The notes: generated by a model from the sequence alone, not told the origin. DNA of 4,799 nt from a virus (IMGVR_UViG_2690316166_000016); one strand, 5' to 3'. Shown: positions 27 to 4,799, counted from the stretch's first letter. Program-made: numbers and translations.

Positions 27-950
27 ATGATGGCCAGCCGGATGCGACGGCCACAGGAAAGAAAGGCCGGGCGAAAAAGGAACGAGAAAAAGGCCGCGCA
101 TAAACGCCAGCGTTTTTCTGTGGACTGGAAAACGCTGCATAACGGGCTTATCTGCCCTGACCGGACGTGGCGGCAAATTGTCACGCTGGAAGATGTGGTT
201 AATCACGGCTGGAAACACACCGATATTGATGAAATTCGTGATGAAAACACCGAAGACGAGTTCCGCAATCTCTATATGTGTGAGTTTGTCCGCGAAGGGG
301 AATCGGCATTTAACCTGAATATCCTGATTGGCTGCGGTGTTGACGGATACGACGACTGGAAAGACTGGAAACCCTTTGCCCCCCGCCCGATGGGGAATCG
401 TCCGGTATGGATTGGGTATGACGCAAACGGCAGCAGTGGTAACGGCGACAGCGGCGCTGTGTCCGTGGTGGTTCCTCCGGCTGTTCCTGGTGGTCGTTTC
501 AGAACGGTGGAGACGCGACGCGTTCAGGGGCTGGAATTTGAAGAGCAGGCCAGAGTTATTGAAGAGTTCACGTATCGCTACAACGTGGAACACATCGGCA
601 TTGATGCGACGGGAGGGCACGGGGATGCCGTCTATCAGATAGTGAAACGGTTTTTTCCCGCCGCCATCCCTTACACCTTCACGCTGTCATCAAAACGGTC
701 GCTGGTACTGAAAATGCTGCAAATAATGCGTGCCGGGCGGTGGGAATACGATCGCGCCGAACGCGAGCTGGTTGCGGCCTTTAACGCCGTGCGTAAGGTG
801 AAAACACCGGGCGGTTTTATCACTTACGAAACGGACCGCGCGAGGGGGATCAGCCACGGCGACCTTGCGTGGGCAACCATGCTTGCTGTCATTAACGAAC
901 CGATTGGCGGCGAAGGAGAAAACGAGCGTTTCACGGTTATGGAGTTCTGA
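27..950 (+). CDS. Phage terminase large subunit, C-terminal nuclease-domain portion (P2 gpP-like); the ATPase part is not in this ORF
   Basis: 307-aa ORF with RNase-H-like terminase nuclease signatures (VWIGYDANGSSGNGDSGAVSVV; EHIGIDATGGHGDAV; ISHGDLAWA) and no Walker A motif. Stop overlaps the next start in TGATG at 948-952. An in-frame TGA at 3-5 means the frame cannot extend upstream; a different frame is open from position 2 to a TAA at 107-109. Family assignment is from memory, not searched. Confidence 0.65.
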   Translation: MMASRMRRPQERKAGRKRNEKKAAHKRQRFSVDWKTLHNGLICPDRTWRQIVTLEDVVNHGWKHTDIDEIRDENTEDEFRNLYMCEFVREGESAFNLNILIGCGVDGYDDWKDWKPFAPRPMGNRPVWIGYDANGSSGNGDSGAVSVVVPPAVPGGRFRTVETRRVQGLEFEEQARVIEEFTYRYNVEHIGIDATGGHGDAVYQIVKRFFPAAIPYTFTLSSKRSLVLKMLQIMRAGRWEYDRAERELVAAFNAVRKVKTPGGFITYETDRARGISHGDLAWATMLAVINEPIGGEGENERFTVMEF

Positions 951-1757
951 TGAGCAGAAAAAATAAAAAAGTGCGCATGAGTTCACGCATTGATCTCGCT
1001 GATGCGCTCAGGAAAGAATCGTCGCTCAGTGCATTCACATTTGATGGTCCTTACCGCCTGACCGGGCATGACCTGCTGGACAATATGTACTGTGCTGATA
1101 ACGGGCGGTGGTATGAAACCCCGGTGGACTGGTACGGTCTGGCAAGAGCTGCCCGGCAAACGTCCTGGCATCAGTCTGCGCTTTACTTTAAGCGCAATGT
1201 ATTGCTCGGCTGCTATATTCCGCACCCGCTGCTTTCCCGGCAGGATTTCTCGGCGCTGGCGCTGGACTGGTTTGTGTTCGGTAACGCATTCCTTGAGCTT
1301 CGGAGCAATATGCTCGGCGAACCGCTTAAATTACGGCACGCCCTGGCGAAATACATGCGACGCGGAAGCGATCTTGAATCATGGTGGTATGTGCAGGATG
1401 GCAAGGATGCGTTTCAGTTTCGTCCTGGCAAAGTGTGCCACCTGATGAATCCGGATATTAACCAGGAAATCTACGGCATGCCGGAATATCTTGGCGCATT
1501 ACTCTCGGCCAGCCTTTCTCATTCGGCGGACATGTTCAGAAAACTGTACTACGACAACGGATCCCACGCCGGGTGCATCATCTACATCGGTGCAGCGCAG
1601 GTAAACCGCGAAAGCATGGACTCCCTGAAAGAAACGCTACAGGGGGCACGTGGTGGTGGTGCGTTTAAAAACGTGCTCATTCATGCGCCCAACGGGGGCA
1701 AAGAGGGGGTGCAAATTTTGCCGTTCCAGCAGATCACCGCAAAGGATGAGTTCATGA
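950..1757 (+). CDS. Phage portal protein (P2 gpQ-like), 5' portion; 3' end hidden in the N-run
   Basis: ATG at 950 preceded by GGAG (941-944); translationally coupled to the terminase stop (TGATG). 269 aa are resolved before the masked region. Terminase-then-portal with a 1-nt overlap is the order I recall for P2 genes P and Q. The frame stays open through the 381 N (a multiple of 3) to a TAA at 2219-2221, but the true stop is probably inside the mask. Confidence 0.6.
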
Positions 1758-2138
1758 NNNNNNNNNNNNNNNNNNNNNNNNNNNNNNNNNNNNNNNNNNN
1801 NNNNNNNNNNNNNNNNNNNNNNNNNNNNNNNNNNNNNNNNNNNNNNNNNNNNNNNNNNNNNNNNNNNNNNNNNNNNNNNNNNNNNNNNNNNNNNNNNNNN
1901 NNNNNNNNNNNNNNNNNNNNNNNNNNNNNNNNNNNNNNNNNNNNNNNNNNNNNNNNNNNNNNNNNNNNNNNNNNNNNNNNNNNNNNNNNNNNNNNNNNNN
2001 NNNNNNNNNNNNNNNNNNNNNNNNNNNNNNNNNNNNNNNNNNNNNNNNNNNNNNNNNNNNNNNNNNNNNNNNNNNNNNNNNNNNNNNNNNNNNNNNNNNN
2101 NNNNNNNNNNNNNNNNNNNNNNNNNNNNNNNNNNNNNN
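1758..2138. other. Masked/unresolved sequence (381 N)
   Basis: Run of n characters; length is a multiple of 3. Hides the portal 3' end and the region immediately downstream. Confidence 0.99.
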
Positions 2139-2167
2139 TGACGCGCTTCGCTTGTCTGCTGCTTCGC

Positions 2168-2192
2168 CGGGGCATAAAAAATTTATGCCCCG
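2168..2192. repeat. Perfect inverted repeat CGGGGCATAAA-aaa-TTTATGCCCCG (11-bp arms, 3-nt spacer)
   Basis: Read directly: arms 2168-2178 and 2182-2192 are exact reverse complements. No T-run follows on either strand, so it is not a canonical intrinsic terminator; it may be a protein-binding site or structural element. Confidence 0.8.
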
Positions 2193-2468
2193 ACTCTCCA
2201 GCTCCTGTATCAGTCAGATAATTTCACGACGCTTTCCTGCTGATTGCCATCATCGACAGTCAGACTCTTACGCAATCCCACCTCGTTGACTGCATATTCT
2301 CGCCGTCTCAGTGCGATTTTGACGGCCTTACCTTTCACCCCATCAAATCAAAAGCCCTCACGTCTTTTTCACGCTCAGCGTGAGAAATACAGCCATTCTG
2401 TTGTATCTCTGCGACATCGTTCAGGGAATGCTATTTACCCCCTGAAACGCGGGCTGTTCCCCCGTCAC

Positions 2469-2522
2469 CTGCGCGCAGAAAAAACGCGTTTTTTTGTGCA
2501 TGCACGGATCCTTGACGGATCC
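2469..2522. promoter_or_regulatory. Cluster of palindromes and short direct repeats between convergent transcription units
   Basis: CTGCGCGCAG (2469-2478); AAAAAACGCGTTTTTT (2479-2494); GTGCATGCAC (2496-2505); ACGGATCC twice (2504-2511, 2515-2522) with a TTGACG between them. Function not determinable; stems are too weak or AU-only for a confident terminator call. Confidence 0.35.
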
Positions 2523-2565
2523 AGCCGCCACGCGGGCCGGAAGGGCAAAAAGTCGTTCAAAAAAA

Positions 2566-2592
2566 TTGTGCAAATTTGTGCACTATTGTGCA
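2566..2592 (+). repeat. Three tandem direct repeats of TTGTGCA at 10-bp phasing
   Basis: TTGTGCA at 2566-2572, 2576-2582 and 2586-2592, with a fourth copy at 2494-2500 inside the GTGCATGCAC palindrome; followed by TATAAA (2595-2600). Helical-turn spacing suggests a protein-binding array (operator-like). Confidence 0.6.
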
Positions 2593-2632
2593 TTTATAAA
2601 ATCAACTAAAAAACACCTAGTGTGACTTACCT

Positions 2633-2818
2633 CTACCACTCGATCGGCACGTAGTCATTAAGTTCCGGAGACCAATTGCACTTTTCACATCTGTGTTTTC
2701 CATTCTGGCAGATACATAAACGATAACGGCCACAATGCGGGCACCCATTTTCACCATTATCATAATCACCGAGCGACCATTCCTGCATAAGCAGCTCTTC
2801 TTCATCATCATTTAGCAT
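2633..2818 (-). CDS. Small Cys-rich protein (61 aa), zinc-ribbon-like, acidic N-terminus; function unknown
   Basis: ATG at 2818 preceded by AAGGGGGA; TAG stop at 2633-2635. Six Cys arranged C-x2-C-x5-C-x1-C-x6-C-x2-C (GCPHCGRYRLCICQNGKHRCEKC). Third gene of a co-oriented operon. Confidence 0.6.
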   Translation of the reverse strand: MLNDDEEELLMQEWSLGDYDNGENGCPHCGRYRLCICQNGKHRCEKCNWSPELNDYVPIEW

Positions 2819-2832
2819 TAATCCCCCTTGAG

Positions 2833-3072
2833 CTATTTACTCTTCTCGGCCCTCAAAATCATACGAGAACCATCATCCAGCTCCCAATTAATTTCACCGC
2901 CTTCTGCCATGACTAGATGCCAAACGAGTTGAGCGGCCTCGTTGGTTACATCGCGACCGCGATCATTTCCTACGCGGCGTTTTGTTCCGTCTCCTAAGTC
3001 ACGCATTTTTGCCAATACGATGGTTTTTGATAGCGGTGAAAAACCAAGCTGTAGTCGTGCTGAATTACTCAC
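2833..3072 (-). CDS. Hypothetical protein (79 aa), function unknown
   Basis: GTG start at 3072 preceded by AAGGGGG with a 6-nt spacer. The start overlaps the stop of the upstream gene as GTGA. An alternative internal ATG would give a shorter product. No recognised family. Confidence 0.55.
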   Translation of the reverse strand: MSNSARLQLGFSPLSKTIVLAKMRDLGDGTKRRVGNDRGRDVTNEAAQLVWHLVMAEGGEINWELDDGSRMILRAEKSK

Positions 3073-3593
3073 TGGCTGCCCCCTTTGTACTGTGTTAACT
3101 CTTCCTGCTCCTGCATCATGCGATTGACCTGAACGCGTGTGCGTCGAACGGCAAAATTAAATTGAAACATGAGCCGGAACATTTCTGATGCTTCCGTGTG
3201 AGCATCACGGATAGGTGACAGGCGGTACAGTTCTGCCTCCGTAGCTTGTTGAATCAATGACAGATCAAATTGAAGTGCGGGTCTGGTACATTTTGCACAT
3301 CTGGCAGCAAGCTCCGGTATTAGTCTCTTAACGAAGGTGTTTTGCACCGCTTTGTTGATTTGTGTCTGCATCCAAATCGCAAATTTCAGCGAACGCATAA
3401 GTTTGATAGCCTCGGGCAGCGGCAGATAGATCATGCTGGTAGATTTGGGTGGTTGGTGAACCATCTTCACGGATACGCGATTTCGCAGCGTTCGGAAAAT
3501 CGTGTTCCCAACAACAGCTTCTACGGATACAGGACAGGGAGCCAGACCAGCCCGCAGTGCTTCTTTCATTAGCATGTATTCGTATTTTTTCAT
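3069..3593 (-). CDS. Hypothetical protein (174 aa), contains one CxxC (CAKC); function unknown
   Basis: ATG at 3593 preceded by GAGGAA with a 6-nt spacer; TGA stop overlapping the downstream GTG start. Basic, no recognised motifs. First gene of the operon. Confidence 0.65.
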   Translation of the reverse strand: MKKYEYMLMKEALRAGLAPCPVSVEAVVGNTIFRTLRNRVSVKMVHQPPKSTSMIYLPLPEAIKLMRSLKFAIWMQTQINKAVQNTFVKRLIPELAARCAKCTRPALQFDLSLIQQATEAELYRLSPIRDAHTEASEMFRLMFQFNFAVRRTRVQVNRMMQEQEELTQYKGGSQ

Positions 3594-3716
3594 CGTGTTT
3601 TCCTCGTGCGGGGCGACAGTGCACCCCGATAAAATTAAAAGCCGTCAAATTCGTCATTCAGGAAATAATGCCCGGATATTCCCTGCTATCTGACTGGTTA
3701 TCTGTGCGGTTGGTAC
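3594..3716 (-). promoter_or_regulatory. 5' leader / possible promoter region of the three-gene operon (also the parR 3' flank)
   Basis: 104-nt spacer between the parR stop and the gene start at 3593. Contains a TTGACG -35-like hexamer (minus strand, plus coordinates 3643-3648) but no convincing -10 at proper spacing. The operon may instead be read through from parMR. Confidence 0.25.
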
Positions 3717-3985
3717 NNNNNNNNNNNNNNNNNNNNNNNNNNNNNNNNNNNNNNNNNNNNNNCTGTCCTGGTTTGTGTCACCGATAACGCCTCATCGTCA
3801 GCCCATGCAGCCAGTCGGTAAGCCTCTGCTGGATTCATTTTCAGAAGTGCCAGCCCGGCCAGAAAAGCCACGCGTTGGCCGCTTTTGCGGGCTTCTGGTG
3901 TAAGGCTGCCCAGCCNNNNNNNNNNNTCGTTCTTGACGGCCGCAGGCTTCAGATAGAAACTTATCCGTCTGGTTGGTGTCGTCAT
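3698..3985 (-). CDS. parR: ParR-like centromere-binding partition protein (type II partition), about 95 aa, partly masked
   Basis: ATG at 3985 preceded by AAGGAG with a 7-nt spacer. N-terminal region (TRRISFYLKPAAVKN ... LGSLTPEARKSGQRVAFLAGLALLKMNP) matches my recollection of the ribbon-helix-helix N-terminus of plasmid R1 ParR. Lies immediately downstream of parM on the same strand. The C-terminus runs through a 46-N mask, so the stop at 3698 is provisional. Confidence 0.6.
   Translation of the reverse strand: MTTPTRRISFYLKPAAVKNXXXXXLGSLTPEARKSGQRVAFLAGLALLKMNPAEAYRLAAWADDEALSVTQTRTXXXXXXXXXXXXXXXXYQPHR
3717..3762. other. Masked/unresolved sequence (46 N)
   Basis: Run of n characters inside the parR 3' region. 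Confidence 0.99.
3916..3926. other. Masked/unresolved sequence (11 N)
   Basis: Run of n characters inside parR; ParR-like sequence continues in the same frame on both sides, so the mask appears to preserve length. Confidence 0.99.
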
Positions 3986-4076
3986 TGGTTTACTCCTTGT
4001 CCATTGCGTACAGCCCATTAACCAGAGCAAACTGTGGCACCCGCTATCCGCGAAGCCTGCGGAGTTAATGCGACTT

Positions 4077-4799
4077 TCATCGCGGACGGGGTGCCACAAT
4101 CTCCGCCCCTCCACCGACAACCATCACCCGCCCGTAACCCGAAAAACCCGCCAGCGCGCGGATCACGCGTTGTTTCAGTGTTTCTTCCTTTTCACGAATA
4201 ACCGCCATCAGGCTGGCGTAATGCGCGTCATTGTGGATGTGCTGGCGCAGCCAGGCTTCATCATGGCGATGTTCGATAATGGTATTGGCGATGTGGTGAC
4301 TGGTGCGCATACCGTTAGTGGCCATCACCGACAGTACGGCATCGGCCATCAGAGAAACGCCTACGTGTGGATCGCAAAACACCTGGCTGATACCTGCCAG
4401 TTGCCCCTGAACCTTTGCCACATCCAGCGTGGTTCCGCCCAAATCCACAATCAGCAGGGATTCAAACGGACTCATGTCAGCCAGTGCCTTAAAGCCAGCC
4501 GGAATGGATTCAGGCATAACCCGCACGTTACGGATAGTGAATGCTTCGCCGTTCTGGTACTCCACCGGGCGCATAACGTTCGCTTTTTTGCGGTTGATGT
4601 TGGCCATGTCCGGCTGTGCGTTTGTGTCGAAATACTCGCTCAGTGGCAGGGTGACAACCACATCCACCTCCTGTGGCGTGATGCCTGATTTGACCAGCGC
4701 GTGATGAATGGCAATGACATTTACATCGCTGTACTGGTATTGCGTGTCGGTTGTCTGGACAAAGCGATCGCTGACCGGATCAAAACCATAGCGCACGCC
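4077..4799 (-). CDS. parM: ParM/StbA actin-like plasmid partition ATPase; N-terminus lies beyond the window end, 3' end apparently truncated or frameshifted
   Basis: Frame open to the window edge. Actin-fold motifs present: LIVDLGGTTLDV (phosphate-2), VMPESIPAG, VMVVGGGAE (adenosine motif). Extensive similarity to R1 ParM as I recall it (YSDVNVIAIHHAL, EVDVVVTLPL). The ORF stops only 7 codons after GGGAE. Confidence 0.8.
   Translation of the reverse strand, partial: GVRYGFDPVSDRFVQTTDTQYQYSDVNVIAIHHALVKSGITPQEVDVVVTLPLSEYFDTNAQPDMANINRKKANVMRPVEYQNGEAFTIRNVRVMPESIPAGFKALADMSPFESLLIVDLGGTTLDVAKVQGQLAGISQVFCDPHVGVSLMADAVLSVMATNGMRTSHHIANTIIEHRHDEAWLRQHIHNDAHYASLMAVIREKEETLKQRVIRALAGFSGYGRVMVVGGGAEIVAPRPR

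What the first reader, a model, noticed from the sequence alone, without database searches (positions are those of the whole stretch)
2494..2600. Phased TTGTGCA direct repeats (3 tandem copies at 10-bp spacing plus a 4th inside the GTGCATGCAC palindrome): candidate operator or binding array
Copies at 2566, 2576 and 2586 are exactly one helical turn apart, so a protein would bind them on one face of the DNA. A fourth copy at 2494 lies inside a perfect 10-bp palindrome. GTGCAC also occurs in the operon's 5' leader (3619-3624). The array lies just 3' of the three-gene operon and is followed by TATAAA. It could be an operator for a locally encoded regulator, a phage regulatory or packaging-associated site, or a promoter firing antisense into the operon's 3' end.
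Basis: seen in the sequence. Interest (0 to 1): 0.45.

Follow-up and report, generated by a model that had tools for sequence, protein, structure and literature searches.

The report
Packaging-signal repeats of a P2-like prophage
The phased TTGTGCA repeats are real and strongly conserved, but they are the outer edge of the DNA-packaging (cos) signal of a P2-family prophage, not an operator or promoter for the neighbouring genes, so this is an ordinary kind of element with one under-described sub-part.

Summary
In detail: TTGTGCA sits at 2494, 2566, 2576 and 2586, and the phased triple is unique in the window and in a complete related phage genome.

The window is a P88-like (P2-family) prophage. 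It runs terminase P, portal Q, cos region, variable cargo, parR, parM.

The array is the last conserved element of the cos region. Homology to relatives runs from the portal to exactly 2592 and then stops, whatever the cargo.

A homolog of the P2 19-nt cohesive end lies at about 2451-2471. Measured from it, TGCA motifs fall at +46/+50 (the fourth copy) and at +118/+128/+138 (the array). In P2, P4 and 186 they fall at +44(/+50) and at +116/+126/+135-139. The gap from the proximal site to the array is 72 bp in all of them.

Portal-less, P4-like elements share with these phages only a ~145-bp block, from the cohesive end to the third repeat.

The array occurs without parMR, with two different replication modules and with many different cargos. 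That excludes a parC or local-operator role.

The most likely function is a cosB-like recognition array for the terminase (small subunit gpM); binding is inferred, not shown.

Novelty: a new member of a known kind. Interest is modest.

The parts
27..950 (+). 3' part of the terminase large-subunit gene (P2 gpP homolog)
   Evidence: tblastn gives 98.6% identity to the pS2122_1 terminase. The homologous gene is annotated in P88 and P88_4B11.
950..2141 (+). Portal gene (P2 gpQ homolog). The interior 1758-2138 is N-masked; the stop codon TGA is at 2139-2141.
   Evidence: 100% identity over the unmasked part. The gene is annotated as portal in relatives. It is 47% identical to P2 gpQ.
2169..2191 (+). 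GC-rich hairpin GGGGCATAAAAAATTTATGCCCC just after the portal stop. By position it corresponds to the P2 terminator tQ.
   Evidence: Seen in the sequence. P2 and 186 annotate the terminators tQ and tW directly after the portal gene. The equivalence rests on position only.
2451..2471 (.). Homolog of the P2-family 19-nt cohesive end (cosN). The boundaries are uncertain by about 2 nt.
   Evidence: GGGCTGTTCCCCCGTCACC matches the reverse complement of the P2 cos (GTGCTTTCCCCGCCTCGCC) at 13 of 19 positions. Relatives share a 12-nt run, CCCCGCCTCGCC, with P2. This is one of the most conserved blocks of the region. A 12.2-kb satellite-like contig begins at the equivalent of 2454. The phiRSA1 cos, GGTGAGGCGGGG..., resembles the minus strand here, GGTGACGGGGGA... 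(PMC5694545).
2470..2504 (.). Inverted repeat 1. It includes the palindrome AAAAAACGCGTTTTTT at 2479-2494.
   Evidence: Repeats I1 and I5. P2, P4 and 186 have an inverted repeat (CCGCCC...GGGCGG) at the same place after cos.
2494..2505 (+). TGCA starts at +46 and +50 from the cos start.
   Evidence: TTTTTGTGCA is near-invariant in relatives. Its position matches TTTTAATGCA(gtTGCA) at +44/+50 in the P2/P4/186 55-bp core.
2521..2540 (.). Degenerate GC-rich dyad (inverted repeat 2) midway between the proximal and distal sites
   Evidence: Relatives, 186 and P4 carry GCGCCAGnnCTGGCGC-type palindromes at about +67 to +87. The element is weak in this window. Its function is unknown.
2558..2565 (+). 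Conserved A7 tract immediately before the array. It is complementary to the T7 tract before the proximal site.
   Evidence: High information content; inverted repeat I7.
2566..2592 (+). Distal array: three TTGTGCA repeats at 10-bp spacing. TGCA starts at +118, +128 and +138 from the cos start, and the array begins 72 bp after the proximal site.
   Evidence: presence and uniqueness; conservation and fixed phase; same positions in P2/P4/186-type cos regions; right-hand limit of the block shared with portal-less elements.
2633..3593 (-). Variable cargo operon of 174 aa, 79 aa (DUF7446) and 61 aa (weak zinc-ribbon match), in the gpA-gpQ hotspot. It is not part of the cos element.
   Evidence: ORFs; Pfam. 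Homology to relatives breaks at 2593. The hotspot is described in PMC9122126.
3698..3994 (-). parR-like gene (Plasmid_stab_B), partly N-masked. Context only.
   Evidence: tblastn 89% identity; Pfam PF10784 on the pS2122_1 ortholog.
3999..4799 (-). parM, 3' part; it runs off the window. Context only.
   Evidence: tblastn 94% identity; annotated in relatives.

Best explanation
The three phased TTGTGCA repeats (2566-2592) are the distal element of the cos DNA-packaging signal of a P88-like, P2-family prophage. The fourth copy (2494) is the proximal element of the same signal.

The signal is a block of about 145 bp lying 3' of the portal gene. In order it contains:
- a homolog of the 19-nt cohesive end, at about 2451-2471;
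- an inverted repeat;
- a T-tract followed by the proximal TGCA site;
- a variable GC-rich dyad;
- an A-tract;
- the triple array.

Everything beyond the third repeat is exchangeable cargo.

The most likely mechanism is as follows. Protomers of the terminase, most likely an oligomer of the small subunit gpM (Pfam PF05944), bind the repeats on one face of the helix. The distal array is 72 bp, about 7 helical turns, from the proximal site, so both can be held in one nucleoprotein complex. That complex positions the large subunit gpP to make the staggered cut at the cohesive-end sequence. In this reading the array is the functional counterpart of the R sites of lambda cosB. It probably also helps set which helper terminase packages which phage or satellite: GTGCA-type repeats here, ATGCA-type in P2, 186 and P4.

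Shown here: location, conservation, fixed geometry, sharing with portal-less elements, and independence from cargo, parMR and gpA type.

Inferred, not shown: the identity of the binding protein, the exact nick positions, and whether the array acts at initiation or at termination of packaging.

The confidence of 0.7 combines about 0.85 that the array is a functional part of the cos packaging signal with about 0.55-0.6 that gpM is the protein that reads it.
For: 1. Context. The window matches Peduoviridae of the P88 group and has the gene order P, Q, intergenic region, cargo, parR, parM, gpA. This is the cos-proximal gpA-gpQ hotspot described in PMC9122126.

2. Boundary. All relatives align from the portal to exactly 2592 and diverge after it. 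In 45 representatives, information content is maximal over the A-tract and repeats 1-2, lower for repeat 3, low in the spacer between repeats 2 and 3, and 0 from 2593 on. Apart from single-base length differences in a few sequences (one in the T-run before the proximal site, one at the first base of the array), the alignment has no gaps between 2490 and 2592.

3. Test without ascertainment on the array. Loci were chosen by portal homology and anchored only on the cos block and the proximal site. Among the 64 unique sequences, repeat 1 is TTGTGCA in 61, repeat 2 in 54 (at least 5 of 7 in all), and repeat 3 in 36 (6 of 7 in 20 more). The offsets are constant within 1 nt.

4. Homology of architecture with experimentally defined cos sites.
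- P2-family cohesive-end homolog: 13 of 19 here; a 12-nt identical run in relatives.
- TGCA positions from the cos start: P2 44, 116, 126, 138; P4 44, 50, 116, 126, 139; 186 44, 50, 116, 126, 135/139; window 46, 50, 118, 128, 138.
- In 76 clusters (<90% identical) of P2/186/P4-type cos regions anchored only on the cohesive end, TGCA lies at +42..46 in 72, at +114..118 in 64, at +124..128 in 62 and at +133..141 in 48. Background occupancy between +55 and +105 is 1.3%. All 7 P4-like satellites in that set have the distal pair.

5. Natural 'minimal cos'. Portal-less elements share with the phages only the stretch from -118/-126 to +26 relative to the first base of the array, or -112 to +26 for L245, which is cut off by the end of its contig. 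That is the cohesive end through the third repeat. L233, for example, encodes an integrase, a P4-alpha-like primase, an epsilon-like protein and an orf88-like regulator. Izhakiella australiensis D4N98 carries both such an element and a P2-like prophage, with identical 27-nt arrays.

6. Module linkage. The array travels with the packaging module: it is kept where the portal is only 54-57% and gpM 44% identical. It does not travel with parMR, the gpA type or the cargo.

7. The terminase has diverged in step with the motif. P88-type gpM belongs to PF05944 and is 36% identical to P2 gpM.

8. Experiment in the literature. For P2/P4 cosmids, lengthening the DNA that flanks the cos core raised transduction by more than 10^4-fold (PMC9594776).
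Against: - No binding, footprint or cleavage data exist for this lineage. gpM binding is inferred by analogy with lambda gpNu1/cosB.
- The published 55-bp P2/P4 core (cited in PMC9594776 and PMC5694545) stops before the distal repeats. I could not read Ziermann and Calendar 1990 to learn whether their minimal functional fragment includes them.
- The linear record of P88_4B11 starts at the equivalent of 2547|2548, and one IMG/VR contig ends 4 nt away. That is about 97 bp from the predicted cohesive end and is unexplained.
- Repeat 3 is only moderately conserved. About 15% of P2-type cos regions lack a TGCA at the expected distal positions, so not every copy may be essential.
- Which end of the DNA is packaged first in P2-like phages was not established here. 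'cosB-like' and 'cosQ-like' therefore remain open.
Confidence: 0.7

Rival explanations
1. The array and its A-tract are an architectural site. It would be either an intrinsic bend or a binding site for a host nucleoid protein such as IHF, Fis or H-NS, and it would shape the cos region without being read by terminase itself.
For: Conserved A7 and T7 tracts flank the proximal and distal sites. Lambda cosB needs an IHF-induced bend between its R sites (my own knowledge). The fixed 72-bp spacing fits any looped complex.
Against: The conserved letters are the TGTGCA cores, not only the A-tracts. The core differs systematically between lineages with diverged terminases: ATGCA against GTGCA. A host factor would not predict that. 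By my own reading of the sequence, there is no good match to the IHF consensus WATCAANNNNTTR at the array.
Confidence: 0.12
2. The array marks a recombination boundary: a site used for exchange of cargo cassettes in the cos-proximal hotspot.
For: Homology breaks exactly after the third repeat in every comparison. PMC9122126 speculates that the nearby cos drives gene exchange.
Against: The sharp break is what selection on a packaging signal next to free-to-vary DNA would produce. No conserved recombinase accompanies the cargos. The same repeats sit at fixed positions relative to the cohesive end in P2, P4 and 186, whose neighbouring genes are unrelated. The other edge of the hotspot was not examined.
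Confidence: 0.05
3. The array is a weak intrinsic terminator or insulator for minus-strand transcripts (parM-parR-cargo) running toward cos.
For: The scan finds GTGCAcaaattTGCAC followed by AATTTTTTTG on the minus strand at 2583-2568. The hairpin appears in the minimum-free-energy fold.
Against: The stem is only 5 bp, and the 91-nt stretch does not fold better than shuffles (z = -0.84). In many relatives the stem shrinks to 4 bp. P2, P4 and 186 have the repeats but no T-run. Many cargos bring their own strong terminator hairpin that abuts the array.
Confidence: 0.05
4. The array is an operator or promoter element for the adjacent three-gene operon, or for an antisense transcript.
For: Phased direct repeats next to a TATAAA hexamer.
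Against: The array is invariant while the adjacent genes differ completely among relatives. TATAAA is cargo-specific, with information content 0. No sigma-70-like site is detected at the array. The motif occurs nowhere else in a complete P88 genome.
Confidence: 0.03
5. The array is the parC centromere bound by the phage-encoded ParR.
For: ParR-type adaptors bind phased direct repeats. No long upstream region precedes parM here: the gpA-parM gap is 77 bp in relatives.
Against: At least 14 loci contain the portal, the array and gpA but have no parM or parR: L018, L022, L023, L032, L033, L034, L052, L062, L078, L094, L114, L117, L132, L134. P2, P4 and 186, which have no parMR annotated in the stretches examined here, have the equivalent repeats. 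In this window the array is separated from parR by variable cargo.
Confidence: 0.02

Closest known systems
cos site of coliphages P2, 186 and satellite P4 (19-nt cohesive end plus the '55-bp core'; Ziermann and Calendar 1990, as cited in PMC9594776, PMC5694545 and PMC9122126)
   Same: - It lies directly 3' of the portal gene and next to the gpA-gpQ hotspot.
- It has a cohesive-end homolog (13 of 19), followed by an inverted repeat and a T-tract-TGCA proximal site at +44-50.
- It has a distal pair or triple of TGCA repeats at about +116, +126 and +136-139.
- The proximal site and the array are 72 bp apart.
- The block is shared with portal-less satellite-like elements.
   Different: - The repeat core is (T)GTGCA instead of (A)ATGCA.
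- All three distal repeats are exactly 10 bp apart; in P2-type sites the third spacing is 9-13 bp.
- The cohesive-end sequence differs.
- gpM is only 36% identical to P2 gpM.
- The cos of this lineage has not been mapped experimentally.
- The distal repeats lie outside the published 55-bp core and are not annotated in the P2, 186 or P4 records.
Lambda cosB (R3-I1-R2-R1), bound by the small terminase gpNu1 (my own knowledge)
   Same: Three short repeats lie within about 150 bp of the nicking site. An A/T-rich, bendable segment is present. The presumed role is to anchor the small terminase subunit so that the large subunit cuts cosN.
   Different: There is no sequence or protein homology: gpM belongs to PF05944, whereas gpNu1 is a winged-helix protein. 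Here all repeats are direct and 10 bp apart. No IHF site is evident. The array lies on the side of cosN away from the terminase genes. The resemblance is of function only, and it is not tested.
SPP1 pac site (pacL/pacR boxes bound by the small terminase G1P) (my own knowledge)
   Same: Several short repeated boxes at defined spacing are bound by an oligomeric small terminase near the cleavage site.
   Different: SPP1 uses headful packaging, its boxes flank the cut on both sides, and the sequences are unrelated.
parC centromere of R1-type ParMRC systems
   Same: Phased direct repeats of about one helical turn, and a parMR operon nearby.
   Different: The array occurs without parMR and in P2, P4 and 186. 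It is tied to the portal/terminase module, not to parMR.

Membership tests
P2-family cos packaging signal | Lies immediately 3' of the portal (gpQ) gene, between gpQ and the variable region that precedes gpA | tested here: met
   The portal ends at 2141 and the conserved block ends at 2592. Cargo, parR and parM follow, and relatives continue to gpA.
P2-family cos packaging signal | Contains the 19-nt cohesive-end sequence that terminase cuts to give 5' overhangs | tested here: inconclusive
   A sequence homolog is present at about 2451-2471. It matches P2 at 13 of 19 positions; relatives share a 12-nt identical run; the block is highly conserved. One contig starts at the equivalent of 2454. 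Actual cleavage cannot be tested with these tools, and the P88_4B11 record starts elsewhere.
P2-family cos packaging signal | Core elements next to the cohesive end: an inverted repeat, then TTTTAATGCA at +38 to +48 (the 55-bp core) | tested here: met
   Inverted repeat 1 at 2470-2504 and TTTTTTTGTGCA at 2489-2500. TGCA lies at +46, against +44 in P2, P4 and 186.
P2-family cos packaging signal | The signal is the only DNA shared between helper phages and their satellites | tested here: met
   Portal-less integrase/primase elements share only the stretch from about -118/-126 to +26 around the array.
P2-family cos packaging signal | The signal is sufficient and necessary for packaging by the cognate terminase | not testable with these tools
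   This needs cosmid transduction and deletion assays.
Lambda-type cosB (small-terminase binding repeats) | The repeats are bound by the small terminase subunit | not testable with these tools
   Inferred only. gpM lies outside the window, so it could not be submitted for structure prediction.
Lambda-type cosB (small-terminase binding repeats) | Homology to lambda R sites and gpNu1, with an IHF site between the repeats | tested here: not met
   gpM belongs to PF05944, which is unrelated to gpNu1. There is no match to the IHF consensus at the array (my reading of the sequence). The resemblance is functional, not one of membership.
parC centromere (ParMRC) | The repeats co-occur with, and depend on, parM and parR | tested here: not met
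   At least 14 loci have the array between portal and gpA with no parM or parR. P2, P4 and 186 have equivalent repeats.
Operator of a local transcription factor, or a promoter | The motif is linked to the regulated genes, is repeated at other promoters of the regulon, and overlaps a promoter | tested here: not met
   The cargo varies while the array is invariant. The motif is unique in the P88 genome. No promoter-like site is found.
Intrinsic terminator | A stable GC-rich hairpin followed by a U-run, conserved among relatives | tested here: not met
   The stem is 5 bp and the 91-nt stretch folds no better than shuffles, z = -0.84. The stem is weaker in relatives, and P2, P4 and 186 have no T-run.

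The most novel reading that the evidence does not exclude
The cos signal of the whole P2 family, phages and their satellites alike, may be larger than the textbook 55-bp core. In this reading it is a block of about 145 bp whose outer boundary is a pair or triple of TGCA repeats at fixed helical phase: +116, +126 and about +138, 72 bp from a proximal TGCA. This distal array would be a cosB-like docking site for gpM that has not been described as such. Its lineage-specific core, ATGCA in the P2/186/P4 type and GTGCA in the P88 type and its satellites, would help decide which helper can package which satellite.
Probability: 0.4. Interest if true: 0.5.

Novelty: new member of a known kind. Interest (0 to 1): 0.35.

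Why it matters
For annotating this window, the result turns an 'orphan' repeat array into a defined feature: the cos site of a P88-like prophage and the fixed edge of a known hotspot for defence and cargo genes.

More generally, the comparison shows that P2-family packaging signals have a conserved distal array, outside the usually quoted 55-bp core, at the same distance from the cohesive end in P2, 186, P4, the P88 group and new P4-like elements.

If terminase reads these repeats, three things follow:
- there is a concrete target for footprinting;
- the strong dependence of P2/P4 cosmid transduction on flanking DNA (PMC9594776) has an explanation;
- there is a handle for engineering or predicting helper-satellite packaging specificity.

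It is not a new kind of system.

Tried and rejected
- **Cos position from record ends.** I first took the P88_4B11 record start (2547|2548) as the cos end, because a second contig ends 4 nt away. I also considered purine-rich look-alikes of the P2 cos in the opposite orientation. I dropped these once the TTCCCCCG block proved to be the P2 cohesive-end homolog in the right orientation and all TGCA positions then lined up. The record start remains unexplained.
- **Contig ends as physical termini.** These were mostly uninformative. The breaks scatter (L161 is an IS1-like insertion; L175 ends at the equivalent of 2531) and probably reflect assembly at repeated prophage DNA. A scan meant to recover the other end of the L030 contig did not find it.
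- **Literature.** Ziermann and Calendar 1990 and the Christie and Calendar review are not held. Other papers only quote the 55-bp core. The supplement of PMC9594776 contains no cosmid sequences. Searches for 'Xuanwuvirus' and for P88 with parM gave nothing on cos.
- **Structure prediction of gpM.** Not possible, because gpM is not encoded in this window.
- **First attempt at fixed-offset motif counts.** One search was contaminated by spurious CCCCCG anchors. It was redone with a stricter anchor.
- **Pattern scan of IMG/VR.** One search also returned unrelated phages with TGTGCA arrays. These were set aside.

Full report
**1. The observation**

TTGTGCA occurs four times in the window, all on the + strand, at 2494, 2566, 2576 and 2586. 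The count alone is weak evidence: 1.15 copies are expected and 7 of 200 shuffles reach four.

The phased triple is a different matter. It is unique, and no shuffle produces it even when three mismatches are allowed. The same holds in the complete genome of phage P88: TGTGCA is if anything under-represented there (20 against 32.8 expected), and its only cluster is this locus. That criterion is not met.

Three side observations are incidental.
- The perfect palindrome GTGCATGCAC is found in only a few sequences; most relatives read GTGCACGCAC.
- GTGCAC at 3619 is at chance level.
- TATAAA lies in the first non-conserved bases after the array.

The N-masked stretches (1758-2138, 3717-3762, 3916-3926) do not touch the finding.

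**2. What the window is**

The region 2140-2592 matches P2-family phages of the P88 group (Xuanwuvirus and relatives) at 92-97% identity. The rest of the query matches them only in patches.

Annotated relatives show the gene order: terminase large subunit, portal, a roughly 450-bp intergenic region, variable genes, parR, parM, replication endonuclease gpA. This is the cos-proximal gpA-gpQ hotspot of P2-like phages, known for carrying tin/old and many defence systems (PMC9122126).

The three-gene operon next to the array (174 aa; 79 aa, DUF7446; 61 aa, weak zinc-ribbon match) is one such cargo.

**3. The array belongs to the conserved block, not to the cargo**

In every comparison, homology runs from the portal to exactly 2592 and then stops.

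I collected loci by portal homology alone, aligned 66 unique cos regions and reduced them to 45 representatives. Information content peaks at three places:
- a TTCCCCCG block (2457-2464);
- TTTTTGTGCA (2491-2500);
- CAAAAAAATTGTGCAAAnTTGTGCA (2558-2582).

It is lower over repeat 3, low in the spacer between repeats 2 and 3, and zero from 2593 on. Apart from single-base length differences in a few sequences (one in the T-run before the proximal site, one at the first base of the array), there are no gaps between 2490 and 2592, although the sequence between the two TGCA sites varies a great deal.

A second test anchored the loci only on the cos block and the proximal site, so that selection did not depend on the array. 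Of 64 unique sequences:

| Repeat | Exactly TTGTGCA | Remainder |
|---|---|---|
| 1 | 61 | 6 of 7 in the other 3 |
| 2 | 54 | at least 5 of 7 in all |
| 3 | 36 | 6 of 7 in 20 more |

Offsets are constant within 1 nt.

The array persists where the portal is only 54-57% and gpM only 44% identical. A scan of one genome per species finds it in prophages of at least 18 genera of Enterobacterales.

**4. It is not parC and not a local operator**

At least 14 loci contain portal, array and gpA with no parM or parR between them. The array also occurs with two unrelated gpA types, one 85-100% and one 31-35% identical to the pS2122_1 protein. The motif is absent elsewhere in the P88 genome, including the regions upstream of parM and the phage promoter regions. 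No promoter-like site overlaps it.

A terminator-like hairpin on the minus strand is an effect of TGCA being self-complementary. The stem is 5 bp, the 91-nt stretch folds no better than shuffles (z = -0.84), the stem is weaker in relatives, and P2, P4 and 186 have no T-run.

**5. Relation to the experimentally defined cos of P2, P4 and 186**

The sequences were read in the portal-to-cargo orientation. The block GGGCTGTTCCCCCGTCACC (2451-2469) matches the reverse complement of the P2 cohesive end, GTGCTTTCCCCGCCTCGCC, at 13 of 19 positions. Relatives such as L197 share a 12-nt run, CCCCGCCTCGCC, with it. The minus strand, GGTGACGGGGGA..., also resembles the mapped cos of the Ralstonia phage phiRSA1, GGTGAGGCGGGG... 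(PMC5694545).

Positions of TGCA motifs, counted from the cos start:

| Sequence | Proximal | Distal |
|---|---|---|
| P2 | 44 | 116, 126, 138 |
| P4 | 44, 50 | 116, 126, 139 |
| 186 | 44, 50 | 116, 126, 135/139 |
| this window | 46, 50 | 118, 128, 138 |
| P88-like relatives | 46 (54/55) | 118, 128, 138 |

The distance from the proximal site to the first distal repeat is 72 bp in all of them. The triple corresponds to a distal set of ATGCA repeats that lies outside that core and is not annotated in the P2, 186 or P4 records.

Between P2 and P4, identity is high from -10 to +50, random from +50 to +110, and rises again over the repeats.

I then sampled P2/186/P4-type cos regions anchored only on the cohesive end: 117 loci, 103 unique, 76 clusters below 90% identity.

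| Position window | Clusters with TGCA (of 76) |
|---|---|
| +42..46 | 72 |
| +114..118 | 64 |
| +124..128 | 62 |
| +133..141 | 48 |

Background occupancy between the sites is 1.3%. All seven P4-like satellites in the sample carry the distal pair.

**6. A natural 'minimal cos'**

Seven loci have the whole P88-type block but no portal or terminase nearby. L233 from Candidatus Erwinia dacicola encodes an integrase, an 889-aa P4-alpha-like primase, an epsilon-like protein, a repressor and an orf88/AlpA-like regulator, which is a P4-like gene set.

BLASTN between these elements and the phages finds a single shared segment. It runs from -118/-126 to +26 relative to the first base of the array, or from -112 for L245, which is cut off by the end of its contig. 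That is the cohesive end through the last base of the third repeat, with a few extra bases on either side in some pairs. This parallels P2 and P4, which share only cos. It places the array inside the unit that must be recognised for packaging.

One such element is a 12,723-bp contig with a 12,207-bp period, which is about the size of P4. After nine adapter-like bases its sequence starts at the equivalent of 2454, within 1-3 nt of the predicted cos boundary. Izhakiella australiensis D4N98 carries both such an element and a P2-like prophage, with identical arrays.

**7. Mechanism**

Shown:
- the array is the outer, phase-locked element of a roughly 145-bp conserved block;
- it is linked to the packaging genes;
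- it is shared with satellite-like elements;
- it is positionally homologous to repeats in mapped cos sites.

Inferred:
- terminase, most likely an oligomer of gpM, contacts the repeats on one DNA face (gpM is PF05944 and 36% identical to P2 gpM);
- together with the proximal site about 7 helical turns away, this positions gpP on the cohesive-end sequence, as gpNu1 on cosB does in lambda (my own knowledge);
- the ATGCA/GTGCA difference contributes to helper specificity.

One experimental hint fits an important element outside the core: lengthening the P4 cos flanks raised P2 cosmid transduction by more than 10^4-fold (PMC9594776). The sequences used in that work were not available.

Rivals, each with low weight, are a host architectural factor, a recombination boundary, a terminator, an operator and parC.

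**8. Open points**

- The P88_4B11 record and one contig break at about +97, not at the predicted cos.
- A GC-rich dyad of the form GCGCCAGnnCTGGCGC, at about +67 to +87, is shared by 186, P4 and many relatives. Its role is unknown.
- Packaging direction, and therefore whether the array is cosB-like or cosQ-like, was not resolved.
- I could not read the 1990 paper that defined the minimal cos.

**9. Verdict**

The favoured interpretation, a local operator or promoter, is wrong. The 'packaging-associated' alternative is right.

The element is the cos site of a P88-like prophage, which makes it a new member of a known kind. The family-wide distal repeat array is a tidy, testable extension of the usual 55-bp description. 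It is of modest interest rather than a surprise.

Noticed in passing
L233 (Ca. Erwinia dacicola), L256 (Izhakiella), L241 (Apirhabdus), L236 (Klebsiella indica), L261 (Escherichia sp.), L232 (Kluyvera), L245+L251 (MAG contig QAKE01000006.1): These portal-less, P4-like elements (integrase, alpha-like primase, epsilon-like protein, orf88-like regulator) carry the P88-type cos block. They look like satellites of P88-type helpers. One is a 12.2-kb unit assembled with terminal redundancy and binned as 'Bacillota', which is probably a mis-binning.
   Followed up: partly
L006 end and L002 end (P88_4B11 record termini), equivalent to window 2547|2548; L030 contig end 4 nt away: Two independent linear records break at GGGCA|AAAA, about 97 bp from the predicted cohesive end. 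This could be an assembly artefact or a real physical feature; it is unexplained.
   Followed up: partly
window 2521-2540; L198, L208, L017 and others; 186 and P4 right ends: A GC-rich palindrome of the type GCGCCAGnnCTGGCGC lies at about +67 to +87 from cos, midway between the proximal and distal TGCA sites. It is shared by 186, P4 and many P88-like relatives and is degenerate in this window.
   Followed up: partly
window 2633-3593 (minus strand): The cargo operon in the gpA-gpQ hotspot encodes a 174-aa protein with no Pfam match, a 79-aa DUF7446 protein and a 61-aa CxxC...CxxC zinc-ribbon protein. Its position makes it a candidate defence or accessory module. The same cargo and junction (TTTATAAAATCAACTAAAA) occur in L022, L189, L137, L041 and L084.
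   Followed up: no
window 3698-4799 and relatives (L001, L003, L008): P88-like P2-family phages carry a parM-parR pair directly after gpA, with only a 77-bp gap and no obvious upstream repeat array. Where their parC lies, and whether these phages can persist as plasmids, was not examined.
   Followed up: no
L161 (IMG/VR 2681813261_000011), last 50 nt: An IS1-like terminal sequence (GGTAATGACTCCAACTTATTGATAGTG...) is inserted right after the cohesive-end homolog (...GTCACCTG|GG...). It separates cosN from the rest of the signal in that prophage.
   Followed up: no
L056, L057, L076, L090, L104, L120, L127; L015/L070/L096; L024/L069/L081; L035; L086; L093: Unrelated viral contigs carry 3-6 or more TGTGCA repeats at 10-bp phase, in several cases immediately upstream of a gene start. 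These are probably operators or iterons of other phage groups.
   Followed up: no
L001 (Salmonella plasmid pS2122_1, 271,960 bp, IncHI2A), locus 5,800-31,000: The closest full-length relative of the window is a P88-like prophage that also carries sopE. In this 'plasmid' record it sits next to chromosomal-type genes (pheA, tyrA, aroF, rplS, trmD, ffh). That suggests a chromosome-derived segment or a mis-assembly.
   Followed up: no
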